This document shows positions 9,639 to 11,067 of a stretch of 64,000 bases of DNA, one piece after another (the stretch's first letter is position 1; the number at the start of each line of letters is the position of its first letter). The stretch lies in NCBI RefSeq assembly GCF_009914755.1, contig NC_060944.1; one strand, written 5' to 3'. The translations under genes were made by a program, and so were the position numbers. The notes beneath the pieces are model-generated. The model had not been told where the DNA came from and searched no databases. It saw nothing but the letters and a program-made list of their open reading frames with translations. Origin of the DNA: the human T2T-CHM13v2.0 reference genome, Homo sapiens.

Positions 9639-9733
9639 TCTAGCTCCCCAGCTACAGCTGCCTGCCCACCTTTTCCACTCAGTCTTCTACCATTCCAGAT
9701 TTCTCTCTTGTCAATCCCCTTTATCACTGTATC
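9639..9733 (+). repeat. Left arm (donor) of a unique-sequence inverted repeat flanking RNF114 exon 5
   Basis: Reverse complement of 10962-11045 with 2 substitutions and 11 extra nt (accattccaga). Confidence 0.95.
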
Positions 9734-10718
9734 TTCCTTGCTGTGGGGTAGGGTTCCACCTTTAAGTGGGGGCACTTAGGTCTTCTCTCTCCCTGGCATG
9801 AGTTTTCTGCACTCACTGGTCTGGTTGTTTACATGTGTTGACAGTAACTGCCGCCTTCTGGCCTTTTCTCCGTGCTGCTGCCTCTCTTCTGGAGCACAAT
9901 TTTTTTTTTTTTTTTTTTTAAGACAGAGTCTCACTCTGTCACCCAGGCTGGAGGCTGGAGTGCAGTGGCACAATCTTGGCTCACTGCAACCTCCACTTCC
10001 AGGGTTCAAGCGATTCTCATGCCTCAGCCTCTCAGGTAGCTGGGACTACAGGCGTGTGCCACCATGCAAGGCTAATTTTTGTATTTTTAGTAGAGAAGAT
10101 GTTTCACTATGTTGGCCAGGCTGGTCTCAAACTCCTGACCTCAGGTGATCTACCGCTTTGGCCTCCCAAAGTGCTGGGATTACAAGTGTGAGCCACTGTG
10201 CCCGGCCTGGAGCACTCTTTCATGTCCTCTTTGCCTTTCCAAATACTTCCCAATCTTCAAAAACCAAATCAACCTTTTGTGTGAGGGCTTTTCAGCCTGA
10301 TCCCCCTCTTCTGAGCATTTCCTTTGTTAAGATGCATGTAAGGCTGTGTTTTACTTCCCTGGGACATTGCTCATCGGCTTATTTTCTTAGTTTTCCTCAT
10401 GCTTTTGGATTGTCTTGTGTGCTGGATTGGAAGGCCAGTCTAGGCCCCCCACCAGGCTGACTCACTTCTCTGCTTACAGTAGGGAATGAGAAAGGGTGGT
10501 ATCATGATTTGAACTTTACCCAGTCCCACGTGTCATTTGACTTGAGCTGGAAATTTGCAGTGTTTTTTTGGGCTGCTGATGTGCACAGGAAGGAGTTACT
10601 GGCCCTGGACAGTATGTCAGGAAAGCTGTCCTGGAAGAAAGGAGGCCAGACACAGGCCACAGAGGGCTGGTGCAAGCTTGGAAATTGGGTGCCTAAGACC
10701 TTGCTTTTGTGTTGAAAG

Positions 10719-10826
10719 GTTTGTCCGATATGTGCCTCGATGCCCTGGGGAGACCCCAACTACCGCAGCGCCAACTTCAGAGAGCACATCCAGCGCCGGC
10801 ACCGGTTTTCTTATGACACTTTTGTG
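10719..10826 (+). CDS. RNF114: RNF114 coding exon 5 (second C2H2 of the Di19 domain), symmetric phase-0 exon
   Basis: gttgaAAG acceptor; [42 protein letters not shown] donor; 108 nt. Confidence 0.97.
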
Positions 10827-10937
10827 GTAAGTCTGGAGCCTGGGCTCTGATCCCTCCCCTGGGGGAGTGGCACGGCTACTTCACTCTTCTCAAAAGGGGA
10901 AATGGGGATCCCCAGTGTTGAACTTTGTCGCTGTTGT

Positions 10938-11067
10938 GATGGGCTTCCAGTCTGTATACTGGATACAGTGATAAAGGGGATTGACAAGAGAGAAAAGAAG
11001 ACTGAGTGGAAGAGGCGGGCAGGCAGCTGTAGCTGGGGAGCTAGATGGGCTTCCAGTCTGTATACTG
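10938..11067 (-). repeat. 84-bp inverted templated insertion flanked by identical 24-bp direct repeats
   Basis: gatgggcttccagtctgtatactg at 10938-10961 and 11044-11067; insert 10962-11045 is the reverse complement of 9639-9733. Confidence 0.95.

What the first reader, a model, noticed from the sequence alone, without database searches (positions are those of the whole stretch)
9639..11067. Unique-sequence inverted copy inserted with a 24-bp duplication brackets the in-frame RNF114 exon 5
Seen: 10962-11045 (84 bp, intron 5, 135 nt after the exon-5 donor) is the reverse complement of 9639-9733 (intron 4, 985 nt before the acceptor), matching at 82/84 positions and lacking 11 nt. I recognise neither arm as an Alu or other repeat. 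In pre-mRNA the arms could form a ~84-bp duplex with one G-U wobble, one A:C mismatch (A9668) and an 11-nt bulge, looping out exon 5. Exon 5 is 108 nt, phase 0/0, with a weak purine-interrupted acceptor (gttgaAAG). Known: intronic complementary sequences can drive exon skipping, back-splicing and ADAR editing, and A:C mismatches are favoured editing sites; RNF114's Di19 zinc fingers with the UIM read ADP-ribose/ubiquitin marks. Inference: a lineage-specific RNA-structure switch that could yield an in-frame RING+UIM isoform lacking half of the Di19 reader, or an exon-5 circRNA.
Basis: partly seen in the sequence, partly recalled or inferred. Interest (0 to 1): 0.8.

Follow-up and report, generated by a model that had tools for sequence, protein, structure and literature searches.

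The report
Inverted intron copy flanking RNF114 exon
An 84-base piece of one RNF114 intron was once copied backwards into the next intron, probably by a DNA-copying slip, so the two copies can pair in the RNA around exon 5, but nothing yet shows that this changes splicing.

Summary
Window 10962-11045 is the reverse complement of 9639-9733: 82 of 84 positions match and 11 nt are missing. It is flanked by an exact 24-bp direct repeat (10938-10961 / 11044-11067). The whole human assembly holds only these two copies.

The best reading is a one-off templated inverted insertion. A copying strand left at 10961, copied 9733 down to 9639 on the other strand, and rejoined 24 nt behind. The intron length printed in a 2022 paper's table implies the insert is also in hg19. 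Two differences in 108 bp date it to roughly 1-67 My.

As RNA, the arms pair strongly in local and co-transcriptional folds. They do not pair in the minimum-energy fold of the full 5-kb stretch, where an Alu pair wins by 75 kcal/mol. Seven inverted Alu pairs already bracket exon 5.

Exon 5 (aa 172-207) carries every modelled ADP-ribose contact of RNF114, so skipping it would matter. But RefSeq lists one transcript, my searches found no paper on exon-5 skipping or an exon-5 circle, and the published circRNF114 (exons 3-5) is assigned Alu partners. Function is untested; interest is modest.

The parts
9639..9733 (+). Source arm in intron 4 (95 nt, unique sequence), the template of the inverted copy
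   Evidence: only two genomic copies; no flanking duplication around it
9689..9699 (+). 11 nt present in the source but absent from the copy. It would form an 11-nt bulge in the RNA duplex. Its origin is unresolved: a slip during copying, or a later indel.
   Evidence: alignment
10719..10826 (+). RNF114 exon 5: 108 nt, phase 0/0, aa 172-207. It encodes the second zinc-binding half of the Di19 domain and the modelled ADP-ribose contacts.
   Evidence: hub annotation
10938..10961 (+). 24-bp flanking duplication, left copy
   Evidence: D5, 100%
10962..11045 (-). Inserted inverted copy in intron 5 (84 nt). Its last 2 nt (GA, 11044-11045) are shared with the right duplication copy.
11044..11067 (+). 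24-bp flanking duplication, right copy
   Evidence: D5, 100%
8395..8689 (+). Alu in intron 4, a competing pairing partner. It pairs with Alu 9266-9560 in the folds.
9266..9560 (-). Alu in intron 4, inverted relative to three intron-5 Alus
9906..10207 (-). Alu in intron 4, lying between the source arm and exon 5. In the 5-kb minimum-energy fold it pairs with Alu 13072-13362, which excludes the arm duplex.
11141..11417 (-). Alu in intron 5. By coordinate arithmetic it is the downstream complementary match listed for the published circRNF114. It also pairs with its neighbour Alu 11427-11745.
11427..11745 (+). Alu in intron 5, sequestered by the adjacent inverted Alu
   Evidence: (I2)
11874..12167 (+). 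Alu in intron 5, inverted relative to the intron-4 minus-strand Alus
13072..13362 (+). Alu in intron 5, partner of an intron-4 Alu in both full-length folds
6062..6364 (+). Alu in intron 2. By coordinate arithmetic it is the upstream complementary match listed for the published circRNF114 (exons 3-5).

Best explanation
This is a fixed, or at least common, mutational scar with no strong function of its own.

Origin (inferred). During replication or replicative repair, a growing DNA strand left its template at window position 10961. It resumed on the opposite strand 1.2 kb away and copied 9733 down to about 9639. It then returned to the original template 24 nt behind the point where it had left. 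The product is [24 bp][84-bp inverted copy][24 bp].

RNA consequence (partly shown, partly inferred). In RNF114 pre-mRNA the two arms can form an 83-pair duplex that loops out exon 5. The downstream arm is transcribed only 135 nt after the exon-5 donor, so this duplex probably forms first and transiently. That should make it a plausible ADAR substrate, with the A9668:C mismatch a good candidate site. It is one clamp among many: seven longer inverted Alu pairs span the same exon. I expect its net effect on exon-5 inclusion or back-splicing to be small.
For: Shown:
- The reverse-complement copy has sharp ends and an exact 24-bp flanking duplication.
- The genome holds only two copies. This excludes a repeat family.
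- The insert has no poly(A), no terminal inverted repeats, and the source has no duplication around it.
- Junction microhomology is 0 nt and 2 nt.
- The whole structure fits the three ordered fragments of the four-point template-switch model, L->1, 2->3 and 4->R, with point 4 lying 24 nt before point 1. The model is described in the Introduction of PMC7954356.
- An inverted insertion near its template is the MMBIR templated-insertion signature (passages of PMC8421209).
- Alu insertions in the same stretch carry 14-16-bp duplications next to poly(T) tails (D7, D8, D9, D10), unlike this one.
- hg19 intron 5 is 2720 nt against 2721 nt here. The 108-bp insert is therefore in both assemblies.
- Two differences in 108 bp, one of them a CpG-to-CpA change in the source, give 9.3 My (CI 1.1-33) at 1e-9 per site per year, or 18.5 My (CI 2.2-67) at 0.5e-9.

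RNA side:
- The arm duplex is -163.9 kcal/mol with 83 pairs.
- The arms pair in the minimum-energy folds of 9200-11800 and 7726-11100.
- 81 of 84 arm pairs have probability 0.9 or more in 9561-11118.

Weak effect:
- Seven cross-exon Alu pairs range from -407.5 to -528.2 kcal/mol.
- The arms are unpaired in the 8350-13400 fold, and forcing them costs +75.3 kcal/mol.
- RefSeq has a single transcript (hub table).
- None of the 3 papers that mention both RNF114 and exon skipping carries either term in its title or abstract; I did not open them.
Against: - Microhomology is minimal (0 and 2 nt). The template lies 1.2 kb away, whereas the published detectors look within about 100 bp or tens to hundreds of nt. 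The fit to replicative template switching is therefore by architecture only. A break-repair route cannot be excluded.
- No outgroup genome was available. The ancestral empty site is inferred, not seen.
- Against 'little function': the arm duplex is nearly perfect, forms in every local or co-transcriptional fold tried, and sits closer to the donor than any Alu.
- The acceptor is purine-interrupted, which could make the exon sensitive to such a clamp.
- Inverted repeats of 30-40 nt suffice for circularisation in reporters (abstract of PMC4201285).
- The exon-5 donor is already known to take part in back-splicing (PMC8938519).
- Minimum-energy folds of kilobase RNAs are crude and ignore proteins and kinetics.
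Confidence: 0.7

Rival explanations
1. The arm duplex is a working, lineage-specific RNA-structure switch. It loops out exon 5 to give an in-frame isoform without the ADP-ribose-binding half of the Di19-UIM reader, or an exon-5 circle, possibly tuned by ADAR editing at A9668.
For: - The duplex is predicted with near-certainty in local and co-transcriptional contexts.
- The exon is phase 0/0 with a purine-interrupted acceptor.
- Exon 5 holds W181, G182, Y186, E193, R198, F201 and F206, the residues that PMC12583694 models as ADP-ribose and ubiquitin contacts. The isoform would therefore be functionally distinct.
- ADAR editing at A:C mismatches in complementary introns promotes circRNF114 in PMC8938519.
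- Intronic inverted Alus can shift an exon from constitutive to alternative splicing (abstract of PMC2533698).
Against: - RefSeq has only one transcript (hub table).
- My literature searches found no exon-5-skipped isoform and no exon-5 circle.
- A 108-nt exon is far below the length that circularised in the ZKSCAN1 reporter, where exons of 400 nt or less did poorly.
- Very stable hairpins can inhibit circularisation (abstract).
- Seven stronger Alu pairs compete, and the arms are absent from the full-length fold.
- Two substitutions have weakened the duplex without compensation.
Confidence: 0.12
2. Same scar, different origin: repair of a double-strand break with ends staggered by 24 nt. One 3' end primed synthesis on the intron-4 sequence, by polymerase theta or synthesis-dependent strand annealing. 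It was then joined to the other, filled-in end by end joining.
For: - A 24-bp duplication is what filling in staggered ends gives.
- One junction has 2 nt of microhomology and the other none. This suits end joining at least as well as microhomology-primed replication.
- Templated and inverted insertions at breaks are documented in yeast (abstract of PMC11724301, seen in the listing).
Against: - That abstract describes mostly very short insertions of about 5-34 bp made by foldback on adjacent sequence. This insert is 84 nt copied from 1.2 kb away.
- No known nuclease gives a 24-nt stagger at such a site (my recollection, not a tool result).
- The sequence alone cannot separate this route from replicative switching.
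Confidence: 0.25
3. Retro-insertion: a fragment of RNF114's own pre-mRNA was reverse-transcribed and inserted in antisense orientation by the L1 machinery, with the 24 bp as its target-site duplication.
For: - A flanking direct duplication is the hallmark of target-primed reverse transcription.
- The insert read on the minus strand is the sense sequence of an intron of the same, broadly expressed gene.
Against: - The insert has no poly(A) tail at either end.
- The duplication does not start at an A-rich L1-type nick site (consensus recalled; sequence).
- At 24 bp it is longer than the 14-16-bp duplications of four Alus in the same stretch.
Confidence: 0.03
4. Assembly artefact or a private variant of CHM13.
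For: None found.
Against: hg19 coordinates printed in the supplement of PMC8938519 give intron 5 as 2720 nt, against 2721 nt in this window. A missing 108-bp insert would show.
Confidence: 0.01

Closest known systems
Template-switch mutations under the four-point model (Loytynoja and Goldman 2017, recalled; Walker et al. 2021, PMC7954356, abstract and Introduction read)
   Same: A reverse-complement copy of nearby same-chromosome sequence lies between two normally copied fragments. A return point behind the departure point gives a flanking duplication. The event creates a near-perfect inverted repeat.
   Different: Published scans restrict templates to tens or hundreds of nt. Here the template is 1228 nt away and the copied tract is 84-95 nt. 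Microhomology is 0 and 2 nt.
MMBIR templated insertions (MMB-TI; Osia et al. 2021, PMC8421209, passages read)
   Same: The insertion lies in inverted orientation to a nearby complementary template.
   Different: The MMBSearch definition requires the template within 100 bp and shows microhomology at both junctions. Neither holds strictly here.
Reverse complementary matches that drive back-splicing, in particular the Alu pair listed for circRNF114 (Shen et al. 2022, PMC8938519, passages and supplement rows read)
   Same: Complementary sequences lie in introns flanking exons of the same gene. The exon-5 donor is the back-splice donor of circRNF114. An A:C mismatch is available for ADAR.
   Different: The published circle is exons 3-5, and its listed match is Alu (window about 6062-6364) with Alu (11141-11417). 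The arms are non-repeat sequence and bracket exon 5 only. One arm lies inside the published circle's precursor.
Intronic inverted Alu pairs that make a neighbouring exon alternative (Lev-Maor et al. 2008, PMC2533698, abstract read)
   Same: Intronic double-stranded RNA near an exon is proposed to alter its inclusion.
   Different: Their tested case has both Alus in the same upstream intron. Here the arms are unique sequence in two different introns, and no splicing change is shown.
Alu/L1 target-primed insertions with target-site duplications
   Same: An insert is bracketed by an exact direct duplication of the target.
   Different: There is no poly(A), no multi-copy source, and the insert comes from 1.2 kb away in the same gene. 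The duplication is 24 bp, against 14-16 bp for the neighbouring Alus.

Membership tests
Template-switch / MMBIR templated insertion | The insert is the reverse complement of a sequence nearby on the same chromosome | tested here: met
   82 of 84 positions identical, with sharp ends
Template-switch / MMBIR templated insertion | The template lies close to the insertion: within 100 bp for MMBSearch, or tens to hundreds of nt for the short-range model | tested here: not met
   1228 nt lie between the arms; definitions
Template-switch / MMBIR templated insertion | Microhomology at both switch junctions | tested here: not met
   0 nt at 10961|10962 and 2 nt (GA) at 11044-11045
Template-switch / MMBIR templated insertion | The descendant is fully explained by three ordered fragments L->1, 2->3, 4->R | tested here: met
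   Fragments are ...10961; 9733->9639; 10938... The leftovers are 2 substitutions and an 11-nt gap
Template-switch / MMBIR templated insertion | An empty ancestral site is seen in an outgroup | not testable with these tools
   No primate genome is held; only the window's own assembly
Retrotransposition by target-primed reverse transcription | Target-site duplication | tested here: met
   24-bp exact duplication
Retrotransposition by target-primed reverse transcription | Poly(A) tail at the 3' end of the insert | tested here: not met
   Neither end of the insert carries an A or T run
Interspersed repeat or DNA transposon | Many dispersed copies; terminal inverted repeats | tested here: not met
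   2 copies in the 3.1-Gb assembly (a lower bound per the tool); 1 internal match in the window
Intronic complementary sequences promoting back-splicing or exon looping | Reverse-complementary tracts of about 30-40 nt or more in both flanking introns | tested here: met
   Helices of 50 + 34 bp lie 985 nt upstream and 135 nt downstream of exon 5; the length criterion is from the abstract of PMC4201285
Intronic complementary sequences promoting back-splicing or exon looping | The tracts are predicted to pair with each other in the pre-mRNA rather than with competitors | tested here: inconclusive
   They pair in the 1.6-, 2.6- and 3.4-kb contexts. They do not pair in the 5-kb minimum-energy fold, where forcing them costs +75.3 kcal/mol
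Intronic complementary sequences promoting back-splicing or exon looping | The matching back-splice or skip junction is observed in RNA | not testable with these tools
   No RNA-seq here. The literature gives only an exon 3-5 circle. No exon-5 circle or skip was found
ADAR substrate | A long, nearly perfect intramolecular double-stranded RNA | tested here: met
   83 pairs at -163.9 kcal/mol, with one A:C mismatch
ADAR substrate | A-to-I editing observed in the arms | not testable with these tools
   No editing database is held. The editing reported for RNF114 in PMC8938519 is in Alu matches

The most novel reading that the evidence does not exclude
A templated inverted insertion created a near-perfect, non-repeat clamp around exon 5 of RNF114. 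The date is only loosely fixed at 1-67 My and could not be placed on the primate tree here. Because the clamp is transcribed 135 nt after the donor, it forms before any Alu competitor. It is edited by ADAR at the A9668:C mismatch. It measurably shifts output towards one of two products. One is an in-frame isoform that keeps the RING and UIM but lacks the whole ADP-ribose pocket, a reader-dead or dominant-negative form of a MARUbe-targeted ligase. The other is an altered yield of circRNF114. If so, a single copying slip would have added a new layer of regulation to ADP-ribose/ubiquitin signalling.
Probability: 0.1. Interest if true: 0.55.

Novelty: new member of a known kind. Interest (0 to 1): 0.3.

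Why it matters
As a mutation, this is a clean germline example of an inverted templated insertion whose template lies 1.2 kb away. That is beyond the search range of the published short-range template-switch and MMBIR detectors. Such mid-range events may therefore be under-counted.

As RNA, it is a rare non-Alu complementary pair placed tightly around a small in-frame exon. That exon encodes the entire modelled ADP-ribose pocket of RNF114. If the clamp altered exon-5 use, it would create a reader-dead ligase isoform.

Nothing found so far shows that it does. The region is already saturated with stronger Alu pairs, so the default expectation is a neutral scar.

Tried and rejected
- No primate or other vertebrate genome is held. 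Presence or absence of the insert across species, the ancestral base at 9668 and the polarity of the 11-nt difference could not be tested.
- Literature on an exon-5 product:
  - 'RNF114' + 'circRNA': 24 papers, none about an exon-5 circle in the 15 listed.
  - circRNF114 name variants: 3 papers. One gives coordinates, for exons 3-5. Two osteoarthritis papers only name it.
  - 'RNF114' + 'exon skipping': 3 papers, with neither term in a title or abstract; I did not open them.
  - Exon-5 coordinates as numbers: 10 hits, all unrelated numbers in unrelated papers.
- Only 2 of the 6 supplement files of PMC8938519 mention RNF114. Circular-RNA databases are not searchable here.
- Rfam over 9000-11800 at E up to 1 gave 29 sub-threshold matches, all inside Alus and none in the arms or the duplication.
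- I tried to use short identities as switch primers. These were a 6-mer CTGTAT near junction 1 and an 8-mer CTGTAGCT at 11027 and 11065, with its reverse complement at 9650. No path through them reproduces the observed order of segments. I treat them as probable chance.
- I considered Alu-Alu pairing as the agent that brought source and target together. The Alus next to source and target (9266-9560 and 11141-11417) lie in the same orientation, which would not give an inverted copy. Rejected as unsupported.
- I rejected a transposon or MITE, a retro-insertion and an assembly artefact; the reasons are under the rival explanations.
- I did not compute splice-site scores, because no MaxEnt model is installed. 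The acceptor is described by inspection only.
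Full report

Yes. Window 9639-9733 (+) and the reverse complement of 10962-11045 align with 82 identities over 84 aligned positions and a single 11-nt gap. 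The 11 nt, 9689-9699, exist only in the intron-4 copy. The repeat finder reports the same match as two gapless blocks: I10 (50 nt, 96%) and I15 (34 nt, 100%). With 40-50 nt of flank on each side, the local alignment still stops exactly at the arm ends.

The intron-5 copy is bracketed by an exact 24-bp direct repeat, 10938-10961 and 11044-11067 (D5). The first two bases of the right copy (GA) could equally belong to the insert. The two substitutions are A9668 against G in the copy, and T9672 against C. In RNA these become one A:C mismatch and one U-G wobble.

The arm lies 985 nt before the exon-5 acceptor, and the copy starts 135 nt after the donor.

**2. Is it unique sequence?**

Searching the window's own 3.1-Gb assembly gave 2 places each time, the query and the other arm. 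The queries were 141, 345 and 292 bases covering the arms and their flanks, the last two at E up to 10. The tool warns that its counts are lower bounds and that common words are skipped.

A self-BLAST of the 64-kb window gave 7452 non-self HSPs. Only 2 of them are low-copy matches of 40 nt or more. The arms are one; the other is a 70%-identical pair at 28772-28903 / 54038-54160.

Rfam at E up to 1 gave 29 sub-threshold matches in 9000-11800. All lie inside Alus, and none touches the arms. So this is neither a repeat family nor a known RNA gene.

**3. The surroundings**

Using one Alu of the window as a BLAST probe, I mapped three Alus in intron 4 and four in intron 5.

| Intron | Alus (strand) |
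|---|---|
| 4 | 8395-8689 (+), 9266-9560 (-), 9906-10207 (-) |
| 5 | 11141-11417 (-), 11427-11745 (+), 11874-12167 (+), 13072-13362 (+) |

That makes seven inverted Alu pairs spanning exon 5. It also makes inverted pairs within each intron that can neutralise one another.

Four of these Alus show their own target-site duplications of 14-16 bp next to poly(T) tails (D7, D8, D9, D10). This is a useful internal contrast to the 24-bp duplication, which has no A or T run.

**4. How it arose (inference)**

The duplication marks the intron-5 copy as the insert. The intron-4 copy has no flanking repeat. The architecture [24][inverted copy of sequence 1.2 kb away][24] is what the four-point template-switch model produces (Introduction of PMC7954356):

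- Synthesis runs up to point 1 (10961).
- It jumps to point 2 on the other strand (9733) and copies backwards to point 3 (9639-9641).
- It returns to point 4 (10938), which lies 24 nt behind point 1, so those 24 nt are copied twice.

An inverted insertion close to its template is also the stated signature of MMBIR templated insertions (PMC8421209).

Two defining features of those published classes are not met. The template is 1228 nt away, not within about 100 nt. Microhomology is 0 nt at one junction and 2 nt at the other. I therefore file this as working like a template switch, by architecture. I keep break repair with staggered ends plus primed synthesis as a serious rival for the origin.

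A retro-insertion is disfavoured: there is no poly(A), and the duplication is longer than those of the neighbouring Alus. A transposon is excluded by copy number.

Short identities near the junctions (CTGTAT; CTGTAGCT at 11027 and 11065) could not be worked into any path that gives the observed order of segments.

**5. Age and distribution**

The supplement of PMC8938519 prints hg19 chr20:48565893-48568612 (2720 nt) for the intron after exon 5. Here that intron is 10827-13547, or 2721 nt. The 108-bp insert is therefore present in hg19 as well as in CHM13.

Two differences in 108 duplicated bp give 9.3 My (Poisson interval 1.1-33) at 1e-9 per site per year, or 18.5 My (2.2-67) at 0.5e-9. One of the two is a CpG-to-CpA change in the source, so the true age is probably nearer the lower values.

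Whether the insert is specific to humans, apes or catarrhines could not be tested, because no other primate genome is held.

**6. What the RNA could do**

- **Duplex strength.** The arm duplex has 83 pairs and -163.9 kcal/mol (duplexfold). The seven cross-exon Alu pairs range from -407.5 to -528.2 kcal/mol.
- **Local and co-transcriptional folds.** The arms pair with each other in the 9200-11800 fold (83 nt). They also pair in 7726-11100, the whole of intron 4 up to just past the insert (82 nt).
- **Pair probabilities.** In the inter-Alu segment 9561-11118, 81 of 84 arm pairs have probability 0.9 or more, and the duplex contributes -136 kcal/mol.
- **Before the second arm exists.** 61 of the 95 upstream-arm nt are engaged in local structure.
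- **Full-length fold.** In the 8350-13400 fold the arms do not pair at all. Alu 9906-10207 pairs with Alu 13072-13362 (262 nt). Because that stem has one arm outside it and the other inside, it excludes the arm duplex. Forcing the arms costs +75.3 kcal/mol.

In short, the duplex is kinetically favoured because it is transcribed first. It is thermodynamically out-competed once the distal Alus exist. These are model folds without proteins or kinetics.

**7. What would be at stake**

Exon 5 is phase 0/0 and encodes aa 172-207. Pfam places zf-Di19 profile positions 2-32 in exon 4 (33.7 bits) and positions 33-54 in exon 5 (18.9 bits, below the family cut-off when scanned alone). Exon 6 encodes the UIM-like tail.

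PMC12583694 models ADP-ribose contacts at W181, G182, Y186, E193 and R198, and ubiquitin-patch contacts at F201 and F206 (passages). All seven residues fall in exon 5, and the numbering matches the translation exactly.

An exon-5-skipped protein would thus keep the RING and UIM and lose the whole ADP-ribose pocket.

**8. Evidence on whether it happens**

I found none in favour.

- RefSeq lists one transcript (hub table).
- The only circRNF114 with coordinates is hg19 chr20:48561919-48565892. By intron lengths (3670 and 2720 nt) and span, this is exons 3-5, window 6848-10826.
- Its listed complementary match lies at intron positions 2885-3155 and 322-590. These map to Alu 6062-6364 (+) and Alu 11141-11417 (-).
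- That circle is reported as ADAR1/2-promoted, with editing at A:C mismatches in the Alu match.
- Two osteoarthritis papers merely name a circRNF114.
- Liang and Wilusz found that 30-40-nt repeats suffice for circularisation. They also found that exons of 400 nt or less circularised poorly or not at all, and that more stable hairpins can inhibit circularisation. This argues against a 108-nt exon-5 circle.
- Lev-Maor et al. show that intronic inverted Alus can make a neighbouring exon alternative (abstract). So the general mechanism is established.

The arm pair nests inside the published Alu match (6062 < 9639 < 11045 < 11141). The two structures are therefore compatible rather than exclusive.

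**9. Verdict**

The feature is real and cleanly delimited: a one-off templated inverted insertion with a 24-bp duplication. It is a new instance of a known kind of mutation, and its template is unusually distant. Its RNA duplex is credible and probably forms transiently.

A regulatory role is possible but unsupported, and the context argues for a small effect at most. Supplements and databases that I could not see may already hold the answer: circRNA catalogues, editing catalogues, junction counts, and the other supplement files of PMC8938519.

Noticed in passing
window 11141-11417 (-) and 11427-11745 (+); Rfam hit at 11387-11467: Two Alus lie head to head about 9-19 nt apart and pair with each other over 198-251 nt in every fold. 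The junction hairpin scores 70.9 bits against Rfam mir-1972 on the + strand and 58.7 on the - strand. Both are below the 90-bit gathering score, so this looks like an Alu-Alu hairpin rather than an miRNA gene.
   Followed up: partly
window 9226-9241/9558-9573; 9889-9902/10207-10220; 11108-11122/11413-11427; 11427-11441/11729-11743: These are target-site duplications of four Alus: 16, 14, 15 and 15 bp at 94%, 86%, 100% and 100% identity. The two intron-5 Alus with perfect duplications inserted side by side. One base (11427) is shared between the end of one duplication and the start of the next.
   Followed up: partly
window 11027-11034 and 11065-11072 (+); reverse complement at 9650-9657: The 8-mer CTGTAGCT inside the insert recurs exactly across the boundary between the right 24-bp copy and the downstream flank. 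I found no switch path that uses it. It may be chance, or a trace of how source and target were aligned.
   Followed up: partly
window 28772-28903 and 54038-54160: This is the only other low-copy internal match in the window: inverted, 132 nt, 70% identical. It is probably two fragments of an old repeat.
   Followed up: no
window 3167-6847 and 6848-10826: Intron 2 is 3681 nt here against 3670 nt in the hg19 coordinates printed in PMC8938519. The exon 3-5 span is 3979 nt here against 3974 nt. These are small indel differences between assemblies, which I did not locate.
   Followed up: no
window 10719-10826: Exon 5 alone carries all seven residues that PMC12583694 models as ADP-ribose or ubiquitin-patch contacts of RNF114: W181, G182, Y186, E193, R198, F201 and F206.
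   Followed up: yes
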